DNA of 64,000 nt. It comes from Heterodontus francisci. Lineage: Eukaryota. Positions 6,528 to 51,560 of this stretch are shown in pieces; the first letter of the stretch is position 1, and every line of letters starts with the position of its first letter. The stretch lies in NCBI RefSeq assembly GCF_036365525.1, contig NC_090382.1, positions 101,986,595-102,050,594 of the forward strand. The letters run 5' to 3'. The position numbers and the translations under genes were made by a program. The notes beneath the pieces were generated by a model. It was given only the letters and a program-made list of their open reading frames with translations. It was not told the origin of the DNA and made no database searches.

Positions 6528-6588
6528 TTTGTGTGAAAACAGACGGAATTAGAAACACCAAGAAAATGAACATCAAATCAGTTGGCAT
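6528..6588 (-). CDS. Ig-superfamily receptor, copy A: signal-peptide exon (MPTDLMFIFLVFLIPSVFTQ + phase 1)
   Basis: ATG at 6588, hydrophobic leader, donor CAA A|GTAAGT at 6528/6527, upstream acceptor ttcttacag|G at 6613/6612. Phase 1 joins in frame to the 3601 exon (A+GC = Ser). Confidence 0.85.
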
Positions 6589-14489: not shown

Positions 14490-17110
14490 TTGTAGAGAGG
14501 ACATAAGTAGGCTACAAAGGGATATATGTAGACTAAGGAGTATAATGTGGGAAAATGTGAATTTGTCCATTTTGACAGGAAGAATAAAAAAGCATATTAT
14601 CTAAATTGTGAGAGATTGCAGAGTTCTGAAATGCAGAGGGATCTGGGTGCCCTAGTGCATGAGTCACAAAAGGTTAACAAGTAGGTACAGCAAGCAATTA
14701 GGAAAGTTGATAGAATTTTTTCAAATTCATTCATGGGATGTGGGCATCGTTGGCTAGGCCATCATTTATTGCCCATCCCTAATTGCCCTTGAGAAGGTGG
14801 TGGTGAGCTGCCTTCTTGAACTGATGCAGTCCATGTGAGGTATGTACACCCAGAGTGCTGTTAGGAAAGGAGTTCCAGTGAAGGAACGGCGATATAGTTC
14901 CAAATCAGGATGGTGTGTGACTTGGAGGGGAACTAGCAGGTGGTGGTGTCCCCATGCATTTTCTGTCCTTGTCCTTCTGGTTGGTAGAGGTCGTGGGTTT
15001 GGAAGGTGCTGTCTAAGGAGCCTTGGTGCGTTGCTGCAGTGCATCTTGTAGATGGTACACACTGCTGCCACTGTGTGTCGGTGGTGGAGGGGGTGAATGT
15101 TTGTGCATGGTGTGCAAATCAAGCGGGCTGCTTTGTTCTGGATTGTGTCGAGCTTCTTGAGTGTTTTTGGAGCTGTACCCATCCAGACCAGTGGAGAGTT
15201 TTCCATCACACTCCTGACTCGTCCCTTGTAGATGGTGGACAGGCTTTGGGGAGTCAGGAGGTGAGTTATTCACCATAGGATTCCTAGCCTCTGACCTGCT
15301 CTTGTAGCCACAGTATTTATATGGCTACTCCAGTTCAGATTCTGGTGAATGGTCACCCCAGGATGTTGATAGTGTGGGATTCAGCAATTGTAATGCCATG
15401 AATGTCAAGGGGAGATGCTTCAGATAGTCATTTCCTGGCACCTGTGCGGCACAGGTTATTGTCGCATCTTCCCCCTATCAGCCCAAGCTTGGATATTGTC
15501 CAGCTCTTGTTGTATTTCTACATGGACTGCTTCAGTACCTGAGGAGTCGTGAATGGTGCTGAACATTGTGCAATCATCAGCAAACATCCCCACTTCTGAC
15601 CTTATGATTAAAGGAAGGTCATTGATGAAGCAGCTGAAGATGGTTGGGCCTAGGACACTACCCTGAGGAAATCCTGCAGTGATGTTCTGGAGCTGAGATG
15701 ATTGTCCTCCAACAACCACAGCCATCTTCCTTTGCGCTAGGTATGACTCCAACCAGCGGAGAGTTTTCCCCGATTCCCATTGACTTCAGTTTTGCTACGG
15801 CACCTTGATGCCATTCTCGGTCAAATGCTGCCTTGATGTCAAGGGCAGTCACTCTCACCTCACCTCTTGAGGTCGGCTCTTTTGTCCATATTTGAACCAA
15901 GGCTGTAATGAGGTCGGAGCTGAGTGGCCCTGGCGGAACCCAAACTGAGCGTCACTGAGCAGGTTATTGTTAAGCAAGTGCCGCTTGATCTGTTGCTTGA
16001 CTAATCTGTGACACAGCTCTCCCAACTTTGGCACAAGCCCCCAGATCTTAGTGAGGAGGACTTTGCAGGGTCGACAGAACTGGGTTTGCCCTTGTCGTTT
16101 CCGGTGCCTAGGTCGACGCTATGTGGTACGTCTGGTTTCATTCTTTTTTAGTGACTTTGTAGCGGTTAGATACAACTGAATGGCTTGCTAGGCCATTTCA
16201 GAGGGCATTTAAGAGTCAACCACATTGCTGTGGGTCTGGAGTCACATGTCGGCCAGACCAGCAGATTTCCTTCCCTAAAGGACATTAGTGAACCAGATGG
16301 GTTTTTACAACAATTGACAATGGATTCATGGCCATCATTAGACTATCTTTTAATTCCAGATTTATCAATTTAATTCAAATTCCACCCTCAGCTGTGGTGG
16401 GATTCAAACCCATGTCCCCAGAGAAATACCCTGGGTATCTGGGTTACTAGTCCAGTGGCAATACCACTACGCCCCCGTTTCCCACAATTATTGTAAGGGG
16501 AAATGAATATAAAGGTAGGGAGGTTATGCTTCAGCTATACAGGGCATTGGTGAGACCACATCTGGAGTACTGTGTAGAGTATTGGTCTCTTTATTTAAGG
16601 AAATGCATTGGAAGCAGTACAGAGAAGGTTTACTAGACTCATACCTGGAATGGGGGATTGTCTTATGAGTAAAGGTTGGACAGACTAGGCTTGTATCCAC
16701 TGGGGTTTAGAAGAGTAAGACGCAACTTGATTGAAACATATAAGATCCTGAGAGGTCTTGACAGGGTAGATGTGGAAAGGATGTTTCCTCTTGTGAGAGA
16801 ATCTAGAACTAGGGGTCACAGTTTAAAAATAAACCATTTAAGACAGAGATGAGGAGAATTCTTTTTCTCTCAGAGGGTCATGAGTCTTTGGAGCTCTTTT
16901 CCTCAAAAGGCTGTGGAAGCAGAGTTTTGAATATTTTTAAGGCAGATGTAGATGGATTGTTGATAAGCGAGAGGGTGAAACGTTATTGGGAGTAAGCAGG
17001 AATGTGGAGTTGAGGTTACAATCAGATCAGCCGTGATCTTATTGAATGGCGGAGCAGGCTTGAGGGGCCGAGTGACCTACTCCTGCTCCTAATTTATATG
17101 TTCATATGCT
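14490..17110 (+). mobile_element. Old CR1 3' fragment split by the family-B LINE; paralog at 49542-52195
   Basis: RT C-terminal remnants and 3' UTR ending ctcctgctcctaat. Confidence 0.75.
14716..16483 (-). mobile_element. Family-B LINE with tRNA head and a ~1.5-kb internal deletion
   Basis: Same head (16390-16483) and RT 3' half. The jump at ~15988 falls at a gcttga microhomology. Inserted in an older CR1 fragment. Confidence 0.9.
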
Positions 17111-20689: not shown

Positions 20690-23600
20690 TAGAACATAGA
20701 ACATAGAACATTACAGCGCAGTACAGGCCCTTCAGCCCTCGATGTTGCGCCGACCTGTGAAACCATCTGACCTACACTATTCCATTTTCATCCATATGTC
20801 TATCCAATGACCACTTAAATGCCCTTAAAGTTGGCGAGTCTACTACTGTTGCAGGCAGGGCGTTCCACGCCCCTACTACTCTCTGTGTAAAGAAACTACC
20901 TCTGACATCTGTCCTATATCTATCACCCCTCAACTTAAAGCTATGTCCCCTCGTGTTTGCCATCACCATCCGAGGAAAAAGGCTCTCACTATCCACCCTG
21001 TCCAGCCCTCTGATTATCTTATCTGTCTCTATTAAGTCACCTCTTCTCCTCCTTCTCTCTAACGAAAACAACCTCAAGTCCCTCAGCCTTTCCTCGTAAG
21101 ACCTTCCCTCCATACCAGGCAACATCCTAGTAAATCTCCTCTGCACCTTTTCCAAAGCTTCCACATCCTTCCTATAATGCGGTGACCAGAACTGCACGCA
21201 ATACTCCAGGTGCGGCCGCACCAGAGTTTTGTACAGCTGCAGCATGACCTCGTGGCTCCTAAACTCGATCCCCCTACTAATAAAAGCTAACACACCATAT
21301 GCCTTCTTAACAGCTCTATTAACCTGGGTAGCAACTTTCAGGGATTTATGTACCTGGACACCAAGATCTCTCTGCTCATCTACACTACCAAGAATCTTCC
21401 CATTAGCCCAGTATTCTGCAATCCTGTTACTCCTTCCGAAGTGAATCACCTCACACTTTTCCGCATTAAACTCCATTTGCCATATCTCAGCCCAGCTCTG
21501 CAGCCTATCTATGTCCCTCTGTAACCTACAACATCCTTCGGCACTATCCACAACTCCACCGACCTTCGTGTCATCCGCAAATTTACTAACCCACCCTTCT
21601 ACACCCTCATCCAGGTCATTTATAAAAATGACAAACAGCAGTGGTCCCAAAACAGATCCTTGCGGTACACCACTAGAAACTATACTCCAGGATGAACATT
21701 TACCATCAACCAGCACCCTCTGTCTTCCTTCAGCTAGCCAATTTCTGATCCAAAGCACTAATTCACCTTCAATCCCATACTTCTGTATTTTCTGCAATAG
21801 CCTACTGTGGGGAACTTTATCAAACGCCTTACTGAAATCCATATAGACCACATCCACGGCTTTACCCTCATCCACCTGTTTGGTCACCTTGTCAAAAAAC
21901 TCAACAAGGTTTGTGAGGCACGACCTACCCTTCACAAAACCGTGCTGACTATCTCTAATGAACTTATTCTTTTCAAGATGATTATAAATCCTATCTCTTA
22001 TAACCTTTTCCAACATTTTACCCACAACCGAAGTAAGGCTCACAGGTCTATAATTACCAGGGCTGTCTCTACTCCCCTTCTTGAACAAGGGGACAACATT
22101 TGCTATCCTCCAGTCTTCCGGCACTATTCCTGTCGACAATGACGACATAAAAATCAAGGACAAAGGCTCTGCAATCTCCTCCCTGGCTTCCCAGAGAATC
22201 CTAGGATAAATCCCATCTGGCCCAGGGGACTTATCTATTTTCACACTTTCCAAAATTGCTAACACCTCCTCCTTGTGAACCTCAATCCCATCTAGCCTAG
22301 TAGTCTGTATCTCAGTATTCTCCTCGACAACATTTTCTTTCTCCACTGTAAATACTGACAAAAAATATTCATTTAACACTTCCCCTATCTCCTCCGATTC
22401 CACACACAACTTCCCACTACTATCCTTGATTGGCCCTAACCTATCTCTAGTCATTCTTTTATTCCTGATATACCTATAGAAAGCCTTAGGGTTTTCTTTG
22501 ATCCTATCCACCAATGACTTCTCGTGTCCTCTCCTTGCACTTCTTATCTCTCCCTTTAGATCCTTCCTGGCTAGCTTGTAACTCTCAAGCACCCTAACTG
22601 AGCCTTCACGTCTCATCCTAACATAAGCCTTCTTCTTCCTCTTGACAAACTCTTCAACTTCTTTAGTAAACTACGGCTCCCTCGCTCGACAACTTCCTCC
22701 CTGCCTGACAGGTACATACTTATCAAGGACACGCAGTAGCTGCTCCTTGAATAAGCTCCACATTTCGATTGTGCCCATCCCCTGCAGTTTCCTTCCCCAT
22801 CCTACGCATCCTAAATCTTGCCTAATCGCATCATAATTTCCTTTCCCCCAGCTATAATTCTTGCCCTGCTGTATATGCCTGTCCCTGCCCATCGCTAAGG
22901 TAAACCTAACCGAATTGTGATCACTATCACCAAAGTGCTCACCAACTTCTAAATCTAACACCTGGCCGGGTTCTTTACCCAGTACCAAATCCAATGTGGC
23001 ATCGCCCCTGGTTGGCCTGTCTACATACTGTGTCAGAAAACCCTCCTGCACACACTGGACAAAAACAGACCCATCTAAAGTACTCGAACTATAGTATTTC
23101 CAGTCAATATTTGGAAAGTTAAAGTCCCCCATAACCACTACCCTGTTACTCTCGCTCCTGTCAAGAATCATCTTTGCTATCCTTTCCTCTACATCTCTGG
23201 AACTATTTGGAGGTCTATAGAAAACTCCCAACAGGGTGACCTCTCCTCTCCTGTTTCTAACCTCGGCCCAGACTACCTCAGTAGACGAGTCCTCAAACGT
23301 CCTTTCTGCCGCTGTAATAGTTTCCTTGATTAACAATGCCACACCCCCCCCCTCTTTTACCATCTTCTCTGTTCTTAGTGAAACATCTAAATCCCGGAAC
23401 CCGCAGCATCCATTCCTGTCCCTGCTCTACCCATGTCTCTGAAATGGCCACAACATCGAGATCCCAGGTACCAACCCATGCTGCAAGCTGACCCACCTTA
23501 TTCCGGATGCTCCTGGCGTTGAAGTAGACACATTTTAAACCAAGCTCTTGCTTGCCAGCGCCCTCTTGTGTCCTTATAACCTTATCTCTGCCCTCACTAC

Positions 23601-25003
23601 TCTCAACATCCTGCACACTGGAACTACAATTTAGGTTCCCATCCCCCTGCTGAATTAGTTTAAACCCCCCCGAAGAGCACTAGCAAATCTCCCCCCCAGG
23701 ATATTGGTACCCCTCTGGTTCAGGTGAAGACCATCCTGTTTGTAGAGGTCCCACCTACCCCAGAAAGAGCCCCAATTATCCAGGAAACCAAAACCCTCCC
23801 TCCTACACCATCCCTGCAGCCACGTGTTCAACTCCTCTCTCTCCCTATTCCTCACTTCGCTAGCACGTGGCACGGGCAACAACCCAGAGATAACAACTCT
23901 GTTTGTTCTCGCTCTAAGCTTCCACCCTAGCTCCCTGAATTTCTGCCTTAAATCCCCATCTGTCTTCCTACCTATGTCGTTGGTGCCTATGTGTACCACG
24001 ACTTGGGGCTGCTCCCCCTCCCCCTTGAGGATCCCAAAAACACGATCCGAGACATCACGTACCCTGGCACCTGGGAGGCAACACACCAACCGTGAGTCTC
24101 TCTCATTCCCACAAAACCTCCTATCTGTTCCCCTAACTATGGAGTCCCCAATGACTAATGCTCTGCTCCTCTTCCCCCTTCCTTTCTGAGCAACAGGGAC
24201 AGACTCTGCGCCAGAGACCTGTATCCCATTGCCTTCCCCTGGTAAGTCGGCTCCCCCAACAGTATCCAAAACGGTATACCTGTTGTTGAGGGAAACGGCC
24301 ACAGGGGATCCCTGCACTGCCTGCTGGTTCCCTCTCCTTCCCCTGACGGTAACCCATCTACCTTCTTCTTTTACCTGAGGTGTGACTGCCTCCCGATAAC
24401 GCCTCTCAATAATCCCCTCCGCCTCCCGAATGATCCGAAGTTCCTCCAGCTCCAGCTCCAGTTCCCTAACGCGGTCCTCGAGGAGCTGGAGCTGGGTGCA
24501 CTTCCCGCAGATGCAGTCAGCAGGGACACCCTTGGCGACCCTTACCTCCCACATTCTGCAGGAGGAACATTCAACTGCCTTAACCTCCATTCCCACTATT
24601 CTAAATTCCCAAGTTTTTAACCAATCACACGATAAAACAAGAAGAGAAATAGAAAAAGCCTTACCTTACCTACACACAACCGAGTCCTTTTTTTTAGGTA
24701 AGAGGAGGAGGGCGGGTGGGAGACACTACAAGAGTAGTGTCTCGGGTTCGGAAACAGCCCAAATATATAGGTTTCTACTTACCCAGCAGTCCCTGCTCCA
24801 CCGAAACTCCCGATGAAATTGACTTCCCAGCTGTTCACTCCTCGCTCGCAATGCCTGTGCTCCTGGAAAAGCTGCACAACGAAAAGGTAAGAGAATTTAC
24901 ACAGCCCAAATATATAGGTTTCTACTTACCCAGCAGTCCCTGCTCCACTGAAACTCCCGATGAAATTGACTTCCTAGCTGTTCACTCCTCGCTCGCAATG
25001 CAG
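20690..25003 (-). mobile_element. Full-length CR1 LINE #2, nearly intact
   Basis: ORF1 23655-24596 is intact. ORF2 20772-23616 has one poly-G frameshift (~23345) and one TAG (~22671). 3' microsatellite tail present. Empty site in copy B at ~55780. Confidence 0.95.
23655..24596 (-). CDS. CR1 ORF1p (Zn finger, coiled coil, SGNH esterase)
   Basis: 313-aa open frame (ATG at 24590) with CSSC/CGKC, VIGDS, HIGTND and DGLHLN. Confidence 0.9.
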   Translation of the reverse strand: MGMEVKAVECSSCRMWEVRVAKGVPADCICGKCTQLQLLEDRVRELELELEELRIIREAEGIIERRYREAVTPQVKEEGRWVTVRGRRGNQQAVQGSPVAVSLNNRYTVLDTVGGADLPGEGNGIQVSGAESVPVAQKGRGKRSRALVIGDSIVRGTDRRFCGNERDSRLVCCLPGARVRDVSDRVFGILKGEGEQPQVVVHIGTNDIGRKTDGDLRQKFRELGWKLRARTNRVVISGLLPVPRASEVRNREREELNTWLQGWCRREGFGFLDNWGSFWGRWDLYKQDGLHLNQRGTNILGGRFASALRGGLN

Positions 25004-34084: not shown

Positions 34085-34475
34085 ACAAGAAAGATTTGCA
34101 TTTATACAGCGCCTTTCATGACCATTGGATGTCTCAATGCACTTTACAGTCAACAAAGCACAAATGAAGTTTAGTCCCTGTTGTATTGTGGGAAACATGG
34201 CAGCCAATTTGCGCACAGCAAGCTCCCACAGATGACAATGTGATAATGACCAGATGATCTGTTTTTGTGATGTTGATTGTTTGATAAATACTGGCCGGAA
34301 TACTGTGGATAGCCCACTTGCTCTTCTTGGAAATAGTGCTATGGGATCTTTTACGTCCACCTGAGAGGGCAGACTGGGCCTTGGTTTGACATCTCATCTG
34401 AAAGACAGCGCCTCTGACAGTGCAGCTCTCCCTCAGTATTGGACTGGGGTGTCAGCCTTGATTTTTGTGCTCAAG
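34085..34475 (-). mobile_element. Deu-domain SINE (SacSINE1/AmnSINE1-like); second copy at 32095-32400
   Basis: Recognisable Deu core gatgagatgtcaaaccaaggcccagtctgccctctcaggtggacgtaaaagatcccatagcactattt. Confidence 0.7.
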
Positions 34476-34944
34476 TTGTCGTGTGTGTTACACTCACAAC
34501 GCACGAGCCTTCAGTTAGAATGAGAGTTATGAGGTACAGATGTTTCTGTTGGGTTGTTGGGTTTGTATTAGTCATGATGTAGAGCATTCTAGAGAAAGTC
34601 TTAGACTCAGGTAAAGGTTTGCTGACAATTCTTTTGTTATTTACAGTTACTATATATATTCACCATAAGCCACATAAAACAACATCTTTGGTGCTGCTAA
34701 ACCTTCTTCTTCTCAAGCTTATCTCCTGTGACTGTTACATCATCACTCGTACAGTGGGAGGGATCTCTCTCACTGTCTTTGGTATTAATCCTTTACATCC
34801 TTACACTACAGTTTCCAGGATCAGCTGAGGCAGACAGAGAGGATTCTCTGAGCCTGAAGAAAGAAGACTTTCAAATCCAATGCTTGCAGCTGGCACTTAT
34901 TTTTGGTGTGTTTATTTTGGGCATTTTGTCTTGGAATTCTGATT

Positions 34945-37900
34945 TTCTTTTTATTTCTTCATGTGATGTGTGCATCGCTGGCTAGACCAGCATTCATTGA
35001 CCATCCCTAATTGCCCTTGAGAAGGTGGTGCTGATCTGCCTTTTTGAACTGCTGCAGTCCTTGTAGTTACACCAACAGTGCTGTTAAGAAGGGAGTTCAG
35101 GATTTTGACCCAGCGATAGTGAAGAATGGAGATATAGTTCCAAGTCAGAATGGTGTGTGACTTGGAGGGGAACTTGCAGGTGGTGGTGCTCCCATGCATT
35201 TGCTGCCCTTGTCCTTCTAGTTGGTCCAGGTCGCGGGTTTGGAAGGTGCTGTCCAAGGAGCCTTAGTGCATTGCTGCAGTGCATCTTGTAGATGGTGCAC
35301 ACTGATGCCAATGTGTGTCGGTGGTGGAGGGAGTGAATGTTTGTATATGGGGTGCCAATCAAGCGGGCTGCTTTGTCCTGGATGGTGTCGAGCTTCTTGA
35401 GTATTGTTGGAGCTGCACCCATCTAGGCAAGTGGAGAGTATTCCATCACACTGTTGACTTGTGCCTTGTAGATGGTGGACAGGCTTTGGGGAGTCAGGAG
35501 GTGAGTTACTCGCCTCAGGATTCCTAGCCTCTGACCTGCTCTTGTAGCCACGGTATTTAAATGGCTACTCCAGTTCAGTTTCGGGTCAATGGTAGCCCCT
35601 AGGATGTTGATAGTGGGGGATTCAGCGATGGTAATGCTGTTGAATGTCAAGGGGAGATGGTTAGATTCTCTCTTGTTGGAGATGGTCATTGCCTGGCACT
35701 TGTGTGGCGTGAATGTTACTTGCCAATTATCAGCCCAAGCCTGGATATTATCCAGGTCTTGCCGCATTTCTACACGGACTGCTTCAGTATCTGAGGAGTC
35801 ACGAATGGTGCTGAACATTGTGCCATCATCAGCGAACATCCCCACTTCTGACTTTATGATTGAAGGTCGGTCATTGATGAAGCAGCTGAAGATAGTTGGG
35901 CCCAGGACACTACCCTGAGGAACTCCTGCAGTGATGTCCTGGAGCTCAGATGATTGACCTCCAACAACCACAACCATCTTCCTTTGCGCTAGGTATGACT
36001 CCGGTCAGCAGAGGGTTTTCCCCCTGATTCCCATTGATCTCAGTTTTGCTAGGGCTCCTTGATGCCATACTCGGTCAAATGCTGCCTTAATGTCAAGGGC
36101 AGTCACTCTCACCTCATCTCTTGAGTTCAGCTTTTTTGTCCATGTTTGAACCAAGGCTGTAATGAGGTCAGGAGCTGAGTGGCCCTGGTGGAACCCAAAC
36201 TGAGCGTCACTGAGCAGGTTATTGCTAAGCACTGCTGGCACTGTTGGTGACACCTTCCATCACTTTACTGATGATTGAGAGTAGGCTGATAGGGCGGTAA
36301 TTGACCGGGTTGGACTTGTCCTGCTTTTTGTGTACAGGGCATACCTGGGCAATTTTCCACATTGCAGGGTAGATGCCAGTGTTGTAGCTGTACTAGAACA
36401 GCTTGGCTAGGGGCGCGGCAAGTTCTGGAGCGCAGGTCTTCAGGACTATTGCCAGAATATTGTCAGGGCCCATAGATTTTGCAGTATCCAGTGCCTTTAG
36501 TCGTTCCTTGATAGCACGCGGGGTGAATAGAATTGGCTGAAGTCTGGCATCTGTGATGCTGGGGACTTCAGGAGGAGGCCGAGATGGATCATCAATTCGG
36601 CACTTCTGGCTGAAGATTGTTGCAAATGCTTCAGCCTAATCTTTTGCACTGATGTGCGGGGCTCCCCCATCATCGAGGATGGGGTTATTTGTGGAGCCAC
36701 CTCCTCCAGTTAGTTGTTTAATTGTGCACCACCATTCACGACTGGATGTGGCAGGACTGCAGAGCTTAGATCTGATCCGTTGGTTATGGGATCGCTTAGC
36801 TCTGTCTATCGCATGCTGCTTACGCAGTTTGTCACGCAGATTGTCCTGTGTTGTAGCTTCACCAGGTTGACACCTCATTTTGAGGTATGCCTGGTGCTGC
36901 TTCTGGCATGCCCTCCTGCACTCTTCATTGAACCAGGGTGGGTCTCCTGGCTTGATGGTAATGGTAGAGTGGGGGATATGCCGGGCCATGAGGTTACAGA
37001 TTGTGGTTGAGTACAATTCTGCTGCTGCTGATGGCCCACTGCGCCTCATGGATGCCCAGTTTTGCATTGATAGATCTGTTCGAAATCTATCCCATTTAGC
37101 ACGGTGATAGTGCCACACAACACGATGGACGGTATCCTCAATCTGAAGGCGGGACTTCTTCTCCACAACGACTGTGCGGTGGTTACTCCTACCAATACAG
37201 TCATGGACAGAAACATCTGCGGCAGGCAGATTGGTGAGGACGAGGTCAGGTATGTTCTTCCCTCGTGTTGGTTCCCTCACCACCTGCTGCAGACCCAGTC
37301 TAGCAGCTATGTCCTTTAGGACTCTGCCAGCTCGGTCAGTAGCGGTGCTACCGAGCCATTCTTTGTGATGGACATTGAAGTCCCCCACCCAGAGTACATT
37401 TTGTGCCCTTGCCACCCTCTATGCTTCCTCCAAGTGGTGTTCAACATGGAGGAGTACTGAGACATCTGCTGAGGGAGGGCGGTAGGTGGTAATCAGTCGG
37501 AGGTTACCTTGCCCATGTTTGACCTGATGCCATGAGACTTCATGGGGTCCGGAGTCGATGTTGAGGACTCCCAGGGCAACTCCCTCCCTTCTGTATACCA
37601 CCGTGCTACCACCTCTGGTGGGTCTGTCCTGCTGGTGGGGCAGGACATACCCGGGGATGGTGATGGCAGCGTCTGGGACATTGTCAGGTATGATTCTGTG
37701 AGTATGACTATGTCAGGCTGTTGCTTGACTAGTCTGTGGAACAGCTCTCCCAACTTTGGCACAAGCCCCCAGATGTTATTAAGGAGGACTTTGCAGGGTC
37801 GACAGGGCTGGGTTTGCCATTGTCGTTTCTGGTGCCTAGGTCGATGCCGGGTGGCCTGTCCGGTTTCATTGTTTTTTATTGACTTAGTAGCGGTTAGGTG

Positions 37901-38203
37901 CAACTGAGTGGCTTGCTAGGCCATTTCAGAGGGCATGTAAGAGTCAACCACATTGCTGTGGGTCTGGAGTCACATGTAGGCCAGACCAGGTAAGGACAGC
38001 AGATTTCCTTCCCTAAAGGACATTAGCGAACCAGATGGGTTTTTACAACAATTGACAATGGTTTCATGGCCATCATTAGACTAGATTTAATTCCAGATTT
38101 ATTAATTAAATTCAAATTCCACCTTCTGCTGTGGTGGGATTCGAACCCATGTCCCCAGAGAAATACCCTGGGTCCAGTGATAATACCACTACGCCACTCC
38201 CTA
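34945..38203 (-). mobile_element. Near-full-length ORF1-less LINE (CR1/L2 super-group, here 'family B') with a tRNA-like Pol III head
   Basis: Box A TGGCGTAGTGG at 38196-38186 and box B GGTTCGAATCC at 38147-38137. APE motifs: NIWGL, ILTES, YRPP, VGDFN, DLVLTN. RT motifs: QFGF, LDIKAAFD, GVPQGSVLGP, FADD. The ORF is broken by several stops and frameshifts; the 3' end is A-rich. Confidence 0.9.
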
Positions 38204-38826
38204 CCCATGTAAAATGGATAGATGCCTGCTCTATGGGCCAGAACCACTTTCACACAATCCATAAAGCAAGGTCACTGCTGTTTGAGTTGAGGGCAACTTG
38301 TAGGTTTTTTCACACTTGACACTGTCTCCTCTTACATTTAATATTTTGCACAGTGTTAATACCGGTGCACTTTCTACACCTTATTTCTTTTTCTCGATTT
38401 CTACTGAAGCTTCTAAATCTCCTCAGCCAGACTAACCCAGAGTCGGTTTAATTGCTGCTGAAATACAACTTCACAGCTGACAAAATTGGAAGGGTGGAAA
38501 TCCTTTCCTTATTGTCCAGGGAGCAATCATGATGCTTTCTGACAGAAACATGGGGTAATTTGTCTTTGTGCGATAATGTAAATTGGCAGCACATTTCACA
38601 GAGATGACTCACTATTGCACATGGTTAAAGTTTCCTGTCCACTGTTCTCCAGAAAGCCTGCTGTTGAAGGATGATGCTGGAGCCCATCTTTACTCAGTCT
38701 TGCATTAATTTTATGAAGTAAAAAGATTATAAATATGCAGCTCCTCACTCAAACCTTCACCCAGTTTCAGTAAGTATCCCCTTACATACACACTCAAGTA
38801 AGACCCTAATTAACACCCTCCACATG

Positions 38827-40065
38827 GAAGAGGTCATAAAACATGGGGTCACTCCCAGGGACTGGGTCCAGTGCAGAAAGAGAGTCAACGACCTCTTTGA
38901 TTCTGTCAAGGTGAGTGCTCTGTACCTCTGTCCACTTTGGGGCTTGCATGTGGCTAAGCGGGAGGCAGTGTGGTGTGAGGAGGGAATGACCACAAAGATG
39001 CTGGCAAAGGGGCCAGGCATCACCACATCCTAGCAAATACATGGCTGCATCTCGGCGACCGGCCACTTTCTTTCACAGCTCACCCCCATTACATCCCCTG
39101 AGAGTGGACGTGGGGAGAAGCCACATGGGAAACCTCATCAGGAGACAAGGGGTTGCCACTAGCATAACTGTTCACTTTCTCTTCCAGCAAAAGCTTACTT
39201 TCTGCCTCTTTCCACTTGCAGGACAAAAACAGCCGTCAAACTTCTGGAGAGGAGCAGCAGACAGAGGATGCACTGTCTCATGACTCCCCTGCACCTTCCA
39301 CCAGTGCAGATAATTTCAGCATGGTGAGTATGAGTTTGGTCTTAGAATCAGGGTCACAAACTGGTGAGAGCACTGCACACTCACCTGAGCAACTGGATGA
39401 GGCTGGGACAGCTGAGGCCACTGACAGTCTGAGGACTCTAGGTGACCAGGCCCGTGCTAAGCCCCAGGCTGATGACAAGCCTCTGGTGTAGCCAGCACAG
39501 GGCATGCTGGACTTGCAGAGAGAGGTAAGGGAACATCTGGCAGAGCTGCCAGAGACAAAGACATCTGCCATGAGCAGATGATGGAGGATTCCATCCATGC
39601 CTTGAGTGCTCCATGTCTCAGGCCTGTGAGTTCACGGCTTTCTCCATCGAGAGGTTGGCAACCCTCATGGAGAGCCAGATTCCACCGATGTGCACAGGCC
39701 TGCACACTATCACCATGGCCATGACCGCAATGCAGCATTGGCAAGGCAAGAGAAGGACAAGGTGCCTGGAGTCTTCTCCAGGTTCTCGTCCTTCTCTGGG
39801 CAGCAGGGAGGTTCAAGTGAGCCTTAAAAGGGTGGAAAATAGGCTGACCTCCACATGTGGGGGCTTCCCTCAGGGTACTCTGAATTTGGACAGCAGCTCC
39901 TCAGCCCCTCAACCAGTGAGCCCTGCTCCAATAGCCATGATGCCTGGTGAGAATCCTATACCTGTGCAGGAAACTCTAATGCAGCTGGAGCCCTCCAGGC
40001 CTCAGGCAGCCAGAGGAGGGCCGTCAAAGTCATCCCAGGCCAAGGGGCAGCCTGATCGGCAACAC
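38827..40065 (+). mobile_element. Harbinger-type Myb/SANT gene remnant; its 3' part is also at 3845-4645
   Basis: EEV..GVTPRDWVQCRKRVNDL (trihelix/MSANTD-like) followed by donor AAG|GTGAGT, acceptor ccacttgcag|GAC and a low-complexity coiled-coil region. Confidence 0.65.
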
Positions 40066-41443
40066 ACTTCTAATGGCCTCACTAAATTCCAACCACTATT
40101 ATACGATAAAACAGAACAATTCTATTCGACATTGAGTTTATTTGTTACTAAAAACAATCAATAATAAGAGAGGACATGGTTAAATCCATGTTGCAGAAAA
40201 GAATGGCTCCAAATTTCATTGTGATTCCTGGTCTACAGGGCACATTATCAGGTTGAACTGGAGTGAACAGGAGAGAAATTGGTGCAGGATGCGGTTATGT
40301 TGTGCCTCCACCCCGTTTGTCTTGAGATGGGGTTTCCTGAGATCAGAGGGGATCAGACGGTTCCAGTGTCCACTCTTCCTGAATCTGAGATGAGAGAGAG
40401 AGAAACCAGCTCTTGGAATCTGACTTCCAATCTCATTCTGGGCTTTGCCTTATCTGTGAAGGTGGTAACTGTGGCTGTGATGGTTACAAATGCACTTAAC
40501 GTTAATGCATTAGAATATTTCCAAGTGGCCTCTGGTGACATTGGTCATATCATTTAGTCAATAATTCATCATTCACTGGACTGTATTTACACTTTGAAAT
40601 CATCATCTTCCTTTACTTGAAGAGTAACACTAAAGTAATAAAGTCCTCATTATAACCATTATTTTATTCATATTTTCACATGGCAAGTTTTCTAAAGCAG
40701 TAAATCCCATTGTCTGTGAACTTTGATAAAGTAGCAACTCACATCACAATTACTAGCAACACAATGGCTCTGTACACATTGTATTCACAATGAAGTTTAA
40801 ACACATTTGGACCAAAACCAAGATGTGATCCAATGTGAGGATCAGGAACAAACCTTCAAACCTTTTCAAATTAACATCTGCCATAACCGTAACTTTTACA
40901 ACAAAAGCACAAGACTGCAGATGCTGGAAATCTGAACTAAAAAGAGAAAATGCTGGAAATGCTCAGCAGATCAAGTAGCATCTGTGGAGAGCGAAACAGT
41001 TCAGGTCGATGACCTTTCATCAGTTTTGACAGACCCGCTGAGCCTTTCCAGCATTCTCTGCAGACATTATAAGGTGCACAGGCTCGAACAACAAAGGATT
41101 CTCAACTATCCCTAATTTTACAAAAACAATTATTCACGTTTGAAATAAAAACAAGAAATGCTGGAAATACTCAGCAGGTCTGGCAGCATCGGTGGAGAGA
41201 GAAGCAGAGTTAACGTTTCAGGTCAGTGACCCTTCATCAGACTCATCATATTGACATTTGACTACTGTTATACATTTGAAACCGTTCTGTACCACATACA
41301 ATCTGTTGACTTTTGAATGATTCAATGTTAAATGCAATGGAATACAAAATGGCTCCACAGAGTGAATGAGACACTTTGAAATATGACATCCAGCTGTGTG
41401 ATGGCAGGTTGTTAGCAAGAGTAGATTCATAGACAGATAGAGG

Positions 41444-41444
<1 letters not shown>

Positions 41445-41523
<79 letters not shown>
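41445..41523 (+). repeat. (GATA)n microsatellite, much longer than its paralog at 6288-6308
   Basis: Direct reading. Confidence 0.95.
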
Positions 41524-41524
<1 letters not shown>

Positions 41525-41743
41525 AAGGAGTTGCAGAGCAATGAGAAATATGCTCACAGTTTTCATTTTTTTAAGTTGTACCATTATCGGAATATACAAA
41601 GTGAAAAACACATTGTCTTTAACGGAGCAGGGACTTGAAAATAAAAGCCTTTGTTCCTTTTGGAATTGAAGCTGCATGAATTCATTAAACCCTGTGATAT
41701 AGTAAAACAATATGACTGTGATTGGTGGAAATAAGACACTTAC

Positions 41744-41804
41744 TTTGTGTGAAAACAGACGGAATTAGAAACACCAAGAAAATGAACATCAAATCAGTTG
41801 GCAT
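41744..41804 (-). CDS. Ig-superfamily receptor, copy B: signal-peptide exon, identical to copy A
   Basis: Same sequence and splice sites as 6528-6588, offset 35216. Confidence 0.75.
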
Positions 41805-43679: not shown

Positions 43680-46600
43680 AGAACATTACAGTGTCTCTAT
43701 TAAGTCACCTCTCCTCCTCCTTCTCTCCAACGAAAACAACCTCAAGTCCCTCAGCCTTTCCTCGTAAGACCTTCCCTCCATACCAGGCAACATCCTAGTA
43801 AATCTCCTCTGCACCCTTTCCAAAGCTTCCACATCCTTCCTATAATGCGGTGACCAGAACTGCACGCAATACTCCAGGTGCGGCCTCACCAGAGTTTTGT
43901 ACAGCTGCAGCATGACCTCGTGGCTCCGAAACTCGATCCCCCTATAATAAAAGCTAACACACCATATGCCTTCTTAACAGCCCTATTAACCTGGGTAGCA
44001 ACTTTCAGGGATTTATGTACCTGGACACCAAGATCTCTCTGTTAATCTACACTACCAAGAATCTTCCCATTAGCCCAGTACTCTGCATTCCTGTTACTCC
44101 TTCCGAAGTGAATCACCTCACACTTTTCCGCATTAAACTCCATTTGCCATCTCTCAGCCCAGCCATGCAGCCTATCTATGTCCCTCTGTACCCTACAACA
44201 TCCTTCGGCACTATCCACAACTCCACCGACCTTCGTGTCATCCGCAAATTTACTAACCCACCCTTCTACACCCTCATCCAGGTCATTTATAAAAATGACA
44301 AACAGCAGTGGCCCCAAAACAGATCCTTGCGGTACACCACTAGTAACTAAACTCCAGGATGAACATTTGCCATCAACCACCACCCTCTGTCTTCTTTCAG
44401 CTAGCCAATTTCTGATCCAAAGCTCTAAATCACCTTCAACCCCATACTTCCATATTTTCTGCAATAGCCTACCATGGGGAACCTTATCAAACGCCTTACT
44501 GAAATCCATATACACCACATTCACTGCTTTACCCTCATCCACCTGTTTGGTCACCTTCTCGAAAAACTCAATAAGGTTTGTGAGGCACGACCTACCCTTC
44601 ACAAAACCGTGCTGACTATCTCTAATGAACTTACTCTTCTCAAGATGATTATAAATCCTGTCTCTTATAACCTTTTCCAACATTTTACCCACAACCGAAG
44701 TAAGGCTCACAGGTCTATAATTACCAGGGCTGTCTCTACTCCCCTTCTTGAACAAGGGGACAACATTTGCTATCCTCCAGTCTTCCGGCACTATTCCTGT
44801 CGACAATGACGACATAAAGATCAAGGACAAAGGCTCTGCAATCTCCTCCCTGGCTTCCCAGAGAATCCTAGGATAAATCCCATCTGGCCCAGGGGACTTA
44901 TCTATTTTCACACTTTCCAAAATTGCTAACACCTCCTCCTTGTGAACCTCAATCCCATCTAGCCTAGTAGTCTGAATCTCAGTATTCTTCTCGACAACAT
45001 TTTCTTTCTCTACTGTAAATACTGACGAAAAATATTCATTTAACGCTTCCCCTATCTCCTCTGATTCCACACACAACTTCCCACTACTATCCTTGATTGG
45101 CCCTAATCTAACTCTAGTCATTCTTTTTTTCCTGATATACCTATAGAAAGCCTTAGGGTTTTCCTCGATCCTATCCGCCAATGACTTCTCGTGTCCTCTC
45201 CTTGCTCTTCTTAGCTCCCCCTTTAGATCCTTCCTGGCTAGCTTGTAACTCTCAAGCGCCCTAACTGAGCCTTCACGTCTCATCCTAACATAAGCCTTCT
45301 TCTTCCTTTTGACAAGTGCTTCAACTTCTTTAGTAAACCACGGCTCCCTCGCTCGACAACTTCCTCCCTGCCTGACAGGTACATACTTATCAAGGACACG
45401 CAGTAGCTGCTCCTTGAATAAGCTCCACATTTCGATTGTGCCCATCCCCTGCAGTTTCCTTCCCCATCCTACGCATCCTAAATCTTGCCTAATCGCATCA
45501 TAATTTCCTTTCCCCCAGCTATAATTCTTGCCCTGCAGTATATACCTGTCCCTGCCCATCGCTAAGGTAAACCTAACCGAATTGTGATCACTATCACCAA
45601 AGTGCTCACCTACATCTAAATCTAACACCTGACCGGGTTCATTACCCAGTACCAAATCCAATGTGGCATCGCCCCTGGTTGGCCTGTCTACATATTGTGT
45701 CAGAAAACCTCCTGCACACACTGGACAAAAACTGACCCATCTAAAGTACTCGAACTATAGTATTTCCAGTCAATATTTGGAAAGTTAAAGTCCCCCATAA
45801 CCACTACCCTGTTACTCTCGCTCCTGTCGAGAATCATCTTCGCTATCCTTTCCTCTACATCTCTGGCACTACTCGGAGGTCTATAGAAAACTCCCAACAG
45901 GGTGACCTCTCCTCTCCTGTTTCGAACCTCGGCCCATACTACCTCAGTAGACGAGTCCTCAAACATCCTTTCTGCCGCTGTAATACTCTCCTTGATTAAC
46001 AATGCCACACCCCCCCCTCTTTTACCATCTTCTCTGTTCTTACTGAAACATCTAAATCCCGGAACCTGCAACATCCATTCCTGCCCCTGCTCTACCCATG
46101 TCTCTGAAATGGCCACAACATCGAGATCCCAGGTACCAACCCATGCTGCAAGCTCACCCACCTTATTCCGGATGCTCCTGGCGTTGAAGTAGACACTCTT
46201 TAAACCAAGTTCTTGCTTGCCAGTGCCCTCTTGCGTCCTCGTAACCTTATCCCTGACCTCACTACTCTCAACATCCTGTACACTGGAACTACAATTTAGG
46301 TTCCCATTCCCCTGCTGAATTAGTTTAAACCCCCCCGAAGAGCACTAGCAAATCTCCCCCCCAGGATATTGGTACCCCTCTGGTTCAGGTGAAGACCATC
46401 CTGTTTGTAGAGGTCCCACCTACCCCAGAAAGAGCCCCAATTATCCAGGAAACCAAAACCCTCCCTGCTACACCATCCCTGCAGCCACGTGTTCAACTCC
46501 TCTCTCTCCCTATTCCTCGCTTCGCTAGCACGTGGCACGGGCAACAACCCAGAGATAACAACTCTGTTTGTTCTCGCTCTAAGCTTCCACCCTAGCTCCC

Positions 46601-47590
46601 TGAATTTCTGCCTTAAATCCCCATCTCTCTTCCTACCTATGTCGTTGGTGCCTATGTGGACCACGACTTGGGGCTGCTCCCCCTCCCCCTTAAGGATCCC
46701 AAAAACACGATTCGAGACATCACGAACCCTGGCACCTGGGAGGCAACACACCAACCGTGAGTCTCTCTCGTTCCCACAGAACCTCCTATCTGTTCCCCTA
46801 ACTATGGAGTCCCCAATGACTAATGCTCTGCTCCTCTTCCCCCTTCCTTTCTGAGCAACAGGGACAGACTTTGTGCCAGAGACCTGTACCCCATTGCTTA
46901 CCCCTGGTAAGTCGTCCCCCGCAACTGTATCCAAAACGGTATACCTGTTGTTGAGGGAAACGGCCACAGGGGACCCCTGCACTGCCTGCTGGTTCCCTCT
47001 CCTTCCCCTGACGGTAACCCATCTCCCTACTTCTTTTACCTGAGGTGTGACTACCTCCCCATAACTCCTCTCAATAACCCCCTCCGCCTCCCGAATGATC
47101 CGAAGTTCATCCAGCTCCAGCTCCAGTTCCCTAATGCGGTTCTCGAGAAGCTGGAGTTGGGTGCACGTCCCGCAGATGCAGTTAGCAGGGACACTCTTGG
47201 CGACCCTTACCTCCCACATTCTGCAGGAGGAACATACAACTGCCTTAACCTCCATTCCCACTGTTCTAAATTCCCAACAAATCTACTGAAAAACCAAAAA
47301 AAAAGTCAAAACTTGTTAGCTTAGCAATCCGACGGACAGAACTTTTTAAATAAAAAACTTACCTTATCAACACACCAGAGTCCTTTTTTTTTCGTTGGAG
47401 GAGGAGGGTGGGTGGGAGACACTACACGTGTAGTGTCTCGAGTACAGCCACCGCCCAAATATATAGTTTTTACTTCCCCAGCGGTCCCCTGGTCCTCCGA
47501 AAACAAAAGGGAATTAACTTTAACTTACACTGAAACTGACCTCCCAGCTGCAAGTTCGCTCCGCACCTCCGCTTCTGTCAAAGCTGCTGC
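43680..47590 (-). mobile_element. CR1 LINE #3, same subfamily as #2, with a ~310-bp deletion near the 3' end
   Basis: ORF1 46320-47261 is intact. ORF2 is in pieces 45700-46161, 44042-45721 and 43686-43913. The tail joins directly to the RT C-terminal region. Present only in copy B. Confidence 0.95.
46320..47261 (-). CDS. CR1 ORF1p (Zn finger, coiled coil, SGNH esterase)
   Basis: 313-aa open frame, highly similar to 23655-24596. Confidence 0.9.
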   Translation of the reverse strand: MGMEVKAVVCSSCRMWEVRVAKSVPANCICGTCTQLQLLENRIRELELELDELRIIREAEGVIERSYGEVVTPQVKEVGRWVTVRGRRGNQQAVQGSPVAVSLNNRYTVLDTVAGDDLPGVSNGVQVSGTKSVPVAQKGRGKRSRALVIGDSIVRGTDRRFCGNERDSRLVCCLPGARVRDVSNRVFGILKGEGEQPQVVVHIGTNDIGRKRDGDLRQKFRELGWKLRARTNRVVISGLLPVPRASEARNREREELNTWLQGWCSREGFGFLDNWGSFWGRWDLYKQDGLHLNQRGTNILGGRFASALRGGLN

Positions 47591-49764: not shown

Positions 49765-51560
49765 TTTTTTTTTAATTCATTCATGGGATGTGGGCATTAT
49801 TGGCTAGGCCAGCATTTATTGCCCATCCCTAATTACCCTTGAGAAGGTGGTGGTGAGCTGCCTTCTTGAACCGCTGCAGTCCATGTGAGGTAGGTACACC
49901 CAGAGTGCTATTAGGAAATGAGTTCCAGGATCTTGACCCAGCGACAGTGAAGGAACGGCGACATAGTTCCAAGTCAGGATGGTGTGTGACTTGGAGGGGA
50001 ACTTGCTGGTGGTGGTGTTCCCATGCATTTGCTGTCCTTGTCCTTCTAGTTGCAAGAGGTGGCGGGTTTGGAAGGTGATGTCAAAGGAGCCTTGGTGCAT
50101 TGCATCTTGTACGTGGTACACAGTGCTTCCACTGTGCGTCGGTGGTGGAGGGAGTGAATGTTTGTAGATGGGTTGCCAATCAAGCGGGCTGCTTGCTCCT
50201 GGATGGTCGAGCTTCTTGAGTGTTGTTGGAGCTGCACCCATCCAGGCAAGTGGAGATTTTTCCATCACACTCCTGACATGGGCCTTGAAGATGGTGGACA
50301 GGCTTTGGGGAGTCAGGAGGTGAGTTATTCGCCGCAGGATTCCAAGCCTCTGACATGCTCTTGTAACCACAGTATTTGTATTGCTACTCTAGTTCAGATT
50401 CTGGTCAATGGTAACCCCCCAGGATGTTGATAGTGGGGGAGCCAGCTATCACAATGCCATTGAATGTCAGGGGAGATGGTTCGATTCTCTCTTGCTGGAA
50501 ATGGTCATTGCCTGGCACCTGTGCAGCATGAATGTTACTTGCCACCTATCAGCCCAAGCTTCGATATTGTCTCGGTCTTGTTAACTTTCTACACAGACTC
50601 CTTCAGTATCTGAGGAGTCGCAAATGGTGCTGAACATTGTATAATCATCAGCAAACATCCCTACTTCTGACCTTATGTTTAAGACAGGTCATTGATGAAG
50701 CAGCTGAAGATGATTGGGCCTAGGACACTACTCTGAGAAACTCCTGAAGTGATGTTCTGGAGCTGTGAACAACCGCAACCAACCACCAACAACCACCACT
50801 ATCTTCCTTTGAGCTAGTAATGACTCCAATCAGTGGAGAGTTTTCTTCCCGATTCCCATTGACTTCAGTTTTGCTACGGCTTGATGCCATACTCGGTCAA
50901 ATACTGCATTGTTGTCAAGGGCAGTCACTCTCACTCTCACCTCACCTCTTGAGTTCGGCTCTTTTGTCCATGTTTGAACCAAGGCTGGAATGAGGTCAGT
51001 GCTGAGTGGCCCTGGCGGAACCCAAATTGAGCGTCAGCATTACTGTTAAGCAAGTGCCGCTTGACCTGTTGCTTGACTAATCTGTGGGATAGCTGTCACA
51101 ACTTTGGCACAAGCCCCCAGATGTTAGTAAGGAGGACTTCACAGGGTGACAGGGCTGGGTTTGCCCTTGTCGTTTCCGGTGCCTTGGTCGATGCTGTGAG
51201 GTTCGTCTGGTTTCATTTTGTTTTATTGACTTTGTAGCAGTTAGGTACATCTGAGTGGCTTGCTAGGCATTTTCAGAGGGCATTTAAGAGTCAACCACAT
51301 TGCTGTGGGTCTGGAGTCACATGTAGGCCAGACCAGCAGATTTCCTTCCCTGAAGAACATTAGTGAACCAGATGGGTTTTTACAACAATCAACAATGGAT
51401 TCATGGCCATCATTAGACTATTTTTTAATTCCAGATTTATTAATTGAATTCAAATTCCACCTTCTGCTGTGGTGAGATAAGAACCCATGTCCCCAGAGAA
51501 ATACCCTGTGTCTCTGGGTTTCTAGTCCAGTAGCAATACCACTACGCCCCTGTTTCCCCT
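49765..51560 (-). mobile_element. Family-B LINE, paralog of 14716-16483
   Basis: Same insertion site and same internal deletion in copy B. Confidence 0.9.

What the first reader, a model, noticed from the sequence alone, without database searches (positions are those of the whole stretch)
37770..37924. Family-B LINE ORF has no normal start: in-frame ATG-GCC-TAG-CAA, then an AUG-free leader
Seen: the only in-frame ATG before the first APE motif (KVLLNNIWGL) is at 37924, followed by GCC TAG CAA and then ~45 open codons with no ATG. The independent copy at ~16050-16197 keeps the same ATG-GCC-TAG and the same frame, though it has one extra TAG, probably from CpG decay. The leader has complementary tracts (tcgac/gtcga, cctagg). 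Established: UAG-CAA is a leaky readthrough context, and uncapped R2 RNAs use non-canonical initiation. Inference: translation may use readthrough, reinitiation or an IRES-like structure, which would suit an uncapped Pol III RNA. An out-of-frame ATG at ~37869 offers a frameshift alternative.
Basis: partly seen in the sequence, partly recalled or inferred. Interest (0 to 1): 0.7.

Follow-up and report, generated by a model that had tools for sequence, protein, structure and literature searches.

The report
AUG-less start of a shark LINE

Summary
The element is a 3.3-kb elasmobranch Zenon LINE (one APE+RT ORF, tRNA-Thr-like head, almost no sense-strand TTTT). ATG-GCC-TAG-CAA sits 132 nt before K-V-L-L and is the majority state in all five lineages I resolved in this genome; sense-codon copies are scattered hotspot mutations. 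Readthrough is unlikely: the context is not CARYYA; published consensuses put the ATG out of frame (whale shark) or add a TAA at codon 9 (dogfish), and raw contigs of one other organism show that TAA in 25% of depth. The out-of-frame ATG (37869) is ATA in three lineages. Instead the motif is predicted to form a hairpin with an anticodon-like 7-nt loop, within a 160-nt block three- to four-fold more conserved than silent ORF sites. The block ends exactly at an invariant in-frame GCT (37891); lineage indels after it keep frame (-3, +3, +6), the frame-breaking changes lie before it. Best reading: IRES-like, AUG-independent start at GCT or the next codon (0.55); dicistrovirus-type factorless mechanism 0.3. 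Folding z-scores are not significant, covariation is thin, one consensus disagrees by 1 nt, and no RNA or ribosome data exist.

The parts
34950..38206 (-). Whole Zenon LINE copy (decayed; stops and frameshifts), about 3.26 kb, A-rich 3' end
38137..38196 (-). tRNA-type head: A box 38196-38186, B box 38147-38137 (this copy lacks 15 nt between them)
   Evidence: sequence; ARAGORN calls tRNA-Thr(AGT) at the head of 3 of 4 full-length copies
37887..38046 (-). 160-nt nearly invariant block, candidate IRES-like element; its first ~142 nt are shared with the derived SINE
   Evidence: 12 of 160 columns vary among five lineages; Fisher p 0.002-0.007 against 4-fold ORF sites; SINE junction
37946..37951 (-). 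GUGGUU, predicted 5' arm of a 6-7 bp helix closing on 37895-37890
37904..37929 (-). Predicted hairpin containing ATG-GCC-TAG-CAA-GCC; 7-nt loop CUAGCAA (37919-37913) with AGC in the anticodon position
   Evidence: 7-nt-loop hairpin in the MFE of 6 of 6 folds, z -1.5 to +1.0; alignment fold
37916..37924 (-).
37886..37891 (-). Invariant in-frame GCT (37891-37889) and next codon (37888-37886): inferred first translated codon
   Evidence: published consensuses read by eye
37867..37869 (-). Out-of-frame (+1) ATG; ATA in lineages M, O and O2
   Evidence: G 84/86 in Y, A 24/26 in M, A 36/39 in O
37817..37858 (-). Arg-x repeat (R-T-T-R-H-R-P-R-H-R-K-R-Q-R in the family majority), possible nuclear import or RNA-binding tail
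   Evidence: function inferred
35007..37792 (-). APE endonuclease + reverse transcriptase ORF from the K-V-L-L motif to the stop
   Evidence: Pfam PF03372, PF14529, PF00078 on the open copy L033
14730..16436 (-). Internally deleted derivative with the same leader (ATG at 16196)
49771..51512 (-). Second internally deleted derivative with the same breakpoint; ATG phase and 1 nt lost

Best explanation
The ATG-GCC-TAG lies inside a conserved 160-nt leader block that likely folds into an IRES-like RNA and is predicted to place ribosomes, without an AUG, at the invariant in-frame GCT (37891) or the codon after it, so the ATG and TAG would be structural letters rather than start and stop signals. Shown: no in-frame ATG after the TAG, block conservation ending at GCT-AC, frame-keeping indels downstream, purifying selection on the endonuclease. 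Inferred: Pol III makes an uncapped RNA; the block recruits ribosomes; the terminal domain (hairpin loop AGC pairing with GCU, and/or GUGGUU pairing with AACCGC) fixes the frame; the protein begins A/T-K-S-I-K-R-N-E-T-G-R... with a basic Arg-x tail before the endonuclease.
For: The endonuclease must be translated: 21 synonymous vs 11 replacement differences over 226 codons between lineages Y and O, and the first in-frame Met after the TAG lies near codon 287-292, beyond the domain. Scanning is implausible: 7-9 ATGs up to and including the flagged one in three lineages and a Pol III-type RNA (tRNA-Thr head; 5 T4 runs vs 278 A4 runs in 62,270 nt of 20 copies, control CR1 ORFs 4.2-5.3 per kb). 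The block differs at 7, 8 and 3 of 160 sites between lineage pairs vs 30/222, 33/220 and 19/227 four-fold sites (p 0.0027, 0.0022, 0.0066); 13 of the next 20 columns vary. GCT-to-K distance is 99, 99, 99, 96 and 105 nt in five lineages, while only 10 of 45 private length changes keep frame. Published consensuses (first 400 nt, read by eye): all five species keep the GCT; whale shark lacks 1 nt before it and 3 nt after it; all three dogfish consensuses have TAA at codon 9, also before it. Raw contigs of organism C show that TAA in 38,037 of 154,725 depth units (115 contigs), 2% or less in three other runs. The loop UAGC is complementary to GCUA (chance about 0.06 for 4 bp; about 0.015 for AGC in anticodon position; post hoc). 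The helix GUGGUU/AACCGC is in the MFE; its next pair goes G.A (60) to G.U (38) to A-U (65) among 177 copies, A.A only 8, and is G-C in three published consensuses. A C-to-U change in lineage M repairs an A.C mismatch in the hairpin stem. The commonest SINE junction keeps the hairpin and drops the GCUA.
Against: No fold is significantly stable (z -1.5 to +1.0). No two-sided change in the loop:GCU pairing; the G.A to A-U path is two events on one lineage, not independent counts. Rfam finds no IRES at E up to 10. Type 6 features are only partly met: 3-4 bp against five, linker 11-12 nt against 6-10, no L1.1 motifs. The dogfish Zenon-1 consensus is 1 nt short after the GCT, in an A run; taken literally it breaks the predicted frame, and I could not see its ORF. 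Leader codons show no clear amino-acid constraint (codons 4-44: 4 synonymous vs 5 replacement changes for Y vs O); plain majorities of O and O2 show TGA at CGA codons, which I read as CpG decay; two published consensuses have TGG at one Arg codon each. The block is largely shared with a non-coding SINE, so its conservation may serve transcription, stability or mobilisation. T4 depletion is not significant against a codon shuffle of one ORF (P 0.20; P 0.003 against uniform codon use). No RNA end, ribosome or protein data.
Confidence: 0.55

Rival explanations
1. Ribosomes start at the ATG at 37924 (good Kozak context) and read through the TAG.
For: ATG and TAG are fixed and in frame with the ORF in all five lineages of this genome (129, 132 or 138 nt to K) and in three published consensuses (55 nt to the second ATG); CAA follows the stop; low output would suffice for a LINE.
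Against: CAA-GCC matches neither CARYYA nor CARNBA, and all six positions mattered in the cited test (PMC4132726). Whale shark consensus is out of frame; dogfish consensuses and 25% of organism C depth add TAA at codon 9. Six to eight ATGs lie upstream. The motif is kept in the non-coding SINE. No lineage replaced TAG by a sense codon although that T is hypermutable, which readthrough alone would not forbid.
Confidence: 0.12
2. Translation starts at the second ATG (37869; AUA in older lineages) in the +1 frame and slips -1 into the ORF within a few codons.
For: ATG present in lineages Y and I and in the full-length consensuses of all five other species, purine at -3; fixed distance to the ORF; the short dogfish Zenon-2 consensus has it in frame with K-V-L-L.
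Against: ATA in M (24/26), O (36/39) and O2, whose ORFs evolved under selection (M vs O 24 synonymous, 12 replacement over 436 codons). No X XXY YYZ heptamer by inspection. Arg codon swaps (CGG/AGG, CGA/AGA) are silent in frame 0 and mostly replacement in +1. Zenon-2 and -3 consensuses carry many deletions and are unreliable for frame. It does not explain why conservation stops at GCT or why A-zone indels keep frame.
Confidence: 0.12
3. After the two-codon mini-ORF (or by loose internal entry) ribosomes reinitiate with Met-tRNA at a near-cognate codon: TTG at codon 8, or ACG/AAG/ATA in the A-rich zone.
For: TTG is fixed in all lineages; each lineage has some near-cognate codon in frame at codons 13-18. 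Reinitiation after short uORFs and unconventional reinitiation in SART1 and LINE-1 are known (PMC5972666).
Against: TTG is followed directly by TAA in the dogfish-type lineage and is out of frame in whale shark; its context is poor; no single near-cognate codon other than weak AAG/AGG is shared; it still needs a way onto an uncapped RNA.
Confidence: 0.13
4. The protein comes from rare Pol II read-through or spliced host transcripts, or from an unseen source element with a normal AUG; the sampled full-length copies are passengers.
For: Trans-mobilisation happens in this family (SINEs and deleted derivatives). No fully intact element from head to tail was seen; searches score only the best 40-150 candidates.
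Against: Five lineages with ORFs under selection all carry the same AUG-less head; youngest copies too; T-run avoidance covers the whole ORF.
Confidence: 0.08

Closest known systems
Elasmobranch Zenon LINEs (CR1 group; Stuart et al. 2026, PMC13343379; passages and first 400 nt of supplementary consensuses seen)
   Same: Same family: head, conserved block and leader match the consensuses; about 3.3 kb, no ORF1, A-rich tail, APE+RT.
   Different: The paper has no occurrence of 'tRNA', 'start codon' or 'polymerase III' in its main text; the start problem is not treated.
Dicistrovirus IGR (type 6) IRESs (PMC10516663, PMC10275262, PMC3517527, PMC12221177; passages seen)
   Same: Works like (inferred): 126-205 nt element ending directly before a non-AUG first codon, commonly GCU or ACN; anticodon-like hairpin, variable linker, codon mimic.
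   Different: Shorter pairing, longer linker, no L1.1 motifs, no Rfam match, PKII/PKIII not identified; host is a vertebrate retrotransposon 5' leader, not a viral intergenic region.
Non-canonical ORF2 starts in LINE-1 and SART1 (PMC5972666 passages; PMC3894237 part 1 and passages); AUG-less R2 (recalled, no call)
   Same: LINE proteins made at low level by unconventional initiation; PMC3894237 raises IGR-type IRESs in non-LTR elements as a possibility.
   Different: Those need an upstream ORF1 (L1, SART1) or a ribozyme-cut Pol I co-transcript (R2, recalled); here there is a tRNA promoter head and no ORF1.
UAG-CARYYA readthrough (tobamovirus type; PMC4132726 passages)
   Same: UAG followed by CAA.
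   Different: Positions +4 to +6 are GCC; the upstream ORF is two codons; frame not kept in all species.
tRNA-Thr-headed MetaSINEs (PMC4824008, parts 2-3 of 6 read)
   Same: tRNA-Thr-like head followed by a conserved body; a SINE with this head and the LINE tail is abundant here.
   Different: Here the same head leads a coding LINE. That the block is the Meta-domain is recalled only; its sequence was not in the text held.

Membership tests
Elasmobranch Zenon LINE | Single APE+RT ORF, no ORF1 | tested here: met
   Pfam; about 430 nt from 5' end to K-V-L-L, no long upstream ORF
Elasmobranch Zenon LINE | Poly-A tail | tested here: met
   A-rich ends on 19 of 20 long copies; one is truncated
Elasmobranch Zenon LINE | Sequence identity with published consensuses | tested here: met
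   12-nt leader motif found in six Zenon rows; 5' 400 nt compared by eye
Elasmobranch Zenon LINE | RT phylogeny inside the Zenon clade | not tested
   Reference RT sequences not available to the tools
Type 6 (IGR) IRES | Length 126-205 nt ending at the first codon | tested here: met
   160-nt block ends at GCT-AC (ranges)
Type 6 (IGR) IRES | PKI: anticodon-stem-loop mimic paired (five bp in CrPV) to the triplet before the first codon | tested here: inconclusive
   7-nt loop hairpin predicted; 3-4 bp with GCU(A); no two-sided change
Type 6 (IGR) IRES | Variable loop of 6-10 nt | tested here: not met
   11-12 nt; CrPV tolerates +4
Type 6 (IGR) IRES | L1.1 motifs U[G/A]A[U/C]C and UGCUA, or the type 6d motifs | tested here: not met
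   Not in the block by inspection; motifs; no Rfam hit
Type 6 (IGR) IRES | Nested PKII/PKIII | tested here: inconclusive
   Several competing helices conserved; none assignable
Type 6 (IGR) IRES | Factor-independent 80S binding and Met-tRNAi-independent start | not testable with these tools
   Needs toeprinting or reconstitution
CARYYA readthrough site | UAG-CAR-YYA (or CARNBA) | tested here: not met
   UAG-CAA-GCC in all lineages
-1 programmed frameshift | Conserved AUG, X XXY YYZ heptamer and downstream stimulator | tested here: not met
   AUG absent in 3 of 5 lineages; no canonical heptamer by inspection; folds not significant
Pol III type 2 transcription unit | A and B boxes; no internal T4 runs | tested here: met
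Pol III type 2 transcription unit | Pol III occupancy, 5' triphosphate RNA | not testable with these tools
   Only contigs were available

The most novel reading that the evidence does not exclude
A vertebrate retrotransposon is a Pol III-made mRNA that carries a tRNA-mimicking, dicistrovirus-like factorless IRES: the loop CU-AGC-AA pairs with the GCU 22 nt downstream, the ribosome starts without Met-tRNAi at the next codon, and the derived SINE keeps the ribosome-binding part but drops the codon mimic to capture the LINE's reverse transcriptase.
Probability: 0.3. Interest if true: 0.92.

Novelty: new variant of a known kind. Interest (0 to 1): 0.68.

Why it matters
Factorless IRESs are described from RNA viruses and their origin is stated to be unknown (PMC12221177); LINEs are described as Pol II-transcribed (PMC10886601). 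A chromosomal element that needs neither cap nor AUG would give a natural Pol III mRNA, a cellular example of IRES-type initiation with a codon-precise prediction, and a testable function for a highly conserved SINE body. It would also matter for compact, cap-free expression cassettes. Even if the type 6 analogy fails, the start can be mapped with a handful of point mutants.

Tried and rejected
Sense-codon subfamily at the TAG: rejected; 10 CAG and 10 GAG copies need 10 changes each (shuffled mean 9.7) on a poorly resolved tree of 99 copies, and the same T is hypermutable at other CCTA(G) sites on both strands. RNA modification as the cause of that hotspot: rejected for the same strand symmetry. 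A compensated +1 upstream ORF (open from 37953 in O, new ATG in Y): rejected because M has a stop and no ATG in that frame. Structure around tcgac/gtcga: no significant fold. Downstream in-frame Met giving an endonuclease-less protein: rejected by selection on the domain. Protein homologue search gave only 38%-identical full-length relatives and gene-model fragments, uninformative on the start. Pattern scans of metagenome and viral contigs: 0 matches each. Rfam: nothing above chance. Meta-domain identity could not be checked in two supplements (one file in each not searched). Runs guessed or recorded as RNA were contigs only and show neither start nor strand. No indel reached 4% share in four runs, so the whale-shark-type -1 was not seen independently. 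Four primary papers (L1 ORF2, HDV-like ribozymes, Pol III mRNA) were not held. Not-in-print claim rests on searches of the held library only; Repbase and Dfam notes, subscription papers, bioRxiv supplements and the consensus sequences beyond 400 nt were not seen.

Full report
What the element is. The finding lies in the 5' part of a minus-strand element at about 34950-38206. Two internally deleted relatives lie at 14.7-16.4 kb and 49.8-51.5 kb and share one breakpoint. A long open copy elsewhere in the genome carries Pfam endonuclease and RVT_1 domains. The first look of a 260-aa query found 212,148 candidates, of which 147 were scored; in 1.0 Mb of unselected sequence 24 hits to the conserved block were found, 8 of them leading into the ORF (nine were labelled so, one is a SINE by eye). 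The 5' 400 nt match the elasmobranch Zenon consensuses in the supplement of PMC13343379. The head is tRNA-Thr-like in 3 of 4 copies scanned. Twenty long copies hold 5 sense-strand T4 runs against 278 A4 runs in 62,270 nt, whereas four CR1 ORFs of the window have 4.2-5.3 per kb; against a codon shuffle of one ORF the deficit is not significant (P 0.20), against uniform codon use it is (P 0.003). Pol III transcription is inferred, not shown; earlier notes of this scan say the same and are not independent.

The observation. ATG GCC TAG CAA at 37924 is in frame with K-V-L-L, 132 nt on. Three further in-frame ATGs lie upstream (37936, 37975, 38023), all before the TAG. In 29 of 30 copies picked by leader similarity the TAG is present; in 26 copies picked by the endonuclease and covering the site, 19 have TAG, 1 TAA and 6 a sense codon; in the random megabase 3 of 8 have TAG. 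Among 99 young copies: TAG 75, CAG 10, GAG 10, other 4; the variants are scattered on the tree and the 15 least diverged copies have TAG 12, CAG 3 (some were chosen for long open frames, which favours sense codons). The same T mutates at 16-25% at other (G)CCTA(G) sites on either strand against a median of 1.5%. So the source elements had TAG. The endonuclease was translated: Y vs O differ by 21 synonymous and 11 replacement changes in 226 codons, and the next in-frame Met is beyond the domain.

Lineages in this genome. From 221 leaders I resolved Y, M and O (132 nt), I (129 nt) and O2 (138 nt modal, 4 of 10 copies; the rest 135-142). Frame 0 is the only frame open in Y, M and O once CpG decay is allowed for; the plain majorities of O and O2 show TGA at CGA codons. 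The out-of-frame ATG at 37869 is ATG in Y (84/86) and I but ATA in M (24/26), O (36/39) and O2. Three lineage-level indels (-3, +3 in the A-rich zone, +6 in the Arg-x repeat) keep frame, while 10 of 45 private length changes do. Within this genome alone, readthrough and a start at codons 4-13 cannot be told apart.

Other species decide between them, with caveats. Read by eye from the first 400 nt of published consensuses: the distance between the two ATGs is 55 nt in white shark, ray and catshark rows, 51 in whale shark and 54 in dogfish Zenon-1. Whale shark lacks one base before the invariant GCT (codon 12) and three after it, so GCT stays in phase with the Arg-x frame while the first ATG does not. 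All three dogfish rows have TAA at codon 9. That TAA is seen independently in contigs of organism C at 25% of depth, 115 contigs, and at 2% or less in three other runs. These consensuses can be gappy (Zenon-2 and -3 clearly are), the rest of each sequence was cut, and dogfish Zenon-1 is one base short after the GCT, which contradicts my model if real. The readthrough context is also incomplete (CAA-GCC vs CARYYA/CARNBA, PMC4132726).

The conserved block. From 38046 to 37887, 12 of 160 columns vary among five lineages, then 13 of the next 20 do. The block is three- to four-fold more conserved than four-fold degenerate ORF sites (p 0.002-0.007) and more than the tRNA head (17-28 of 161). It ends at AACCGCTAC. 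Folding puts the flagged motif in a hairpin whose 7-nt loop CUAGCAA has the layout of an anticodon loop with AGC in the anticodon position, complementary to the in-frame GCU 12 nt beyond the stem. A second conserved helix, GUGGUU with AACCGC, closes on the same spot; its flanking pair changes G.A to G.U to A-U across 177 copies and is G-C in three other species. Either arrangement ends at codon 12. Type 6 IRESs end in such a mimic directly before a first codon that is commonly GCU or ACN, but they have five pairs, a 6-10 nt loop and L1.1 motifs that are not met here, and Rfam gives no match. None of the folds is significantly stable and the structural reading was found post hoc. I therefore do not file it as a type 6 IRES; I say it probably works like one. 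The commonest SINE junction falls between hairpin and GCUA, which fits a coding-specific role for the last nine bases, while the sharing of the rest with a SINE is also the main alternative reason for its conservation.

Verdict. The AUG-less start is real and ancient. Most likely (0.55) a structured leader starts translation at 37891 or 37888 without AUG; second ATG with frameshift 0.12, readthrough 0.12, near-cognate reinitiation 0.13, hidden Pol II source 0.08. The family is catalogued; its initiation is not treated in the paper that catalogues it and I found no report in nine searches of the held library. Papers seen: PMC13343379 passages and cut supplement cells; its bioRxiv version passages; PMC4824008 parts 2-3; PMC5786205 part 1; PMC5499810 part 2; PMC3894237 part 1 and passages; passages of PMC10886601, PMC5972666, PMC10516663, PMC10275262, PMC12221177, PMC3517527, PMC4132726; supplement search only for PMC4758252. 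R2 initiation, the Meta-domain identity, Kozak rules and slippery-site rules are recalled.

Noticed in passing
family-wide; element positions 242, 302, 382, 2181 and antisense 2329 (reference L036): T in a (G)CCTA(G) context mutates to G or C in 16-25% of young copies, as often as or more often than CpG sites (13-16%), on both strands; an unexplained mutation hotspot.
   Followed up: partly
window 14730-16436 and 49771-51512: Two copies share one internal deletion (position 493 to about 1980-2000): a propagated non-autonomous 1.75-kb derivative.
   Followed up: partly
L070:5686-6155, L131-L160, L313, L336, L362: Many SINE forms join the head to the LINE 3' tail at different points; one form in other species joins before the ATG and lacks the hairpin.
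   Followed up: partly
window 37817-37858: Arg at every second codon; the 6-nt insertion in lineage O2 adds one more unit; possible NLS or RNA-binding tail replacing ORF1.
   Followed up: partly
window 8376-12150, 20772-24665, 44042-47282: Three near-complete canonical CR1 elements with an upstream ORF1, T-run rich on the sense strand; used as control.
   Followed up: partly
window about 34360-34480 (+): Fragment resembling another SINE family (Deu/SacSINE1 type, recalled, not tested).
   Followed up: no
window 6090-6548 and 41246-41764: Two similar stretches 35 kb apart (same 150-aa open frame on the minus strand), with more similarity near 3766-4529 and 39574-40164: possible local duplication or another repeat.
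   Followed up: no
proteins P0005, P0085, P0095, P0109, P0112, P0116: Several shark and ray gene models contain pieces of this LINE's ORF as exons; probably annotation artefacts, possibly exonisation.
   Followed up: no
L079, L080, L090: Three young copies in this genome also have TAA at codon 9; not checked for common descent.
   Followed up: no
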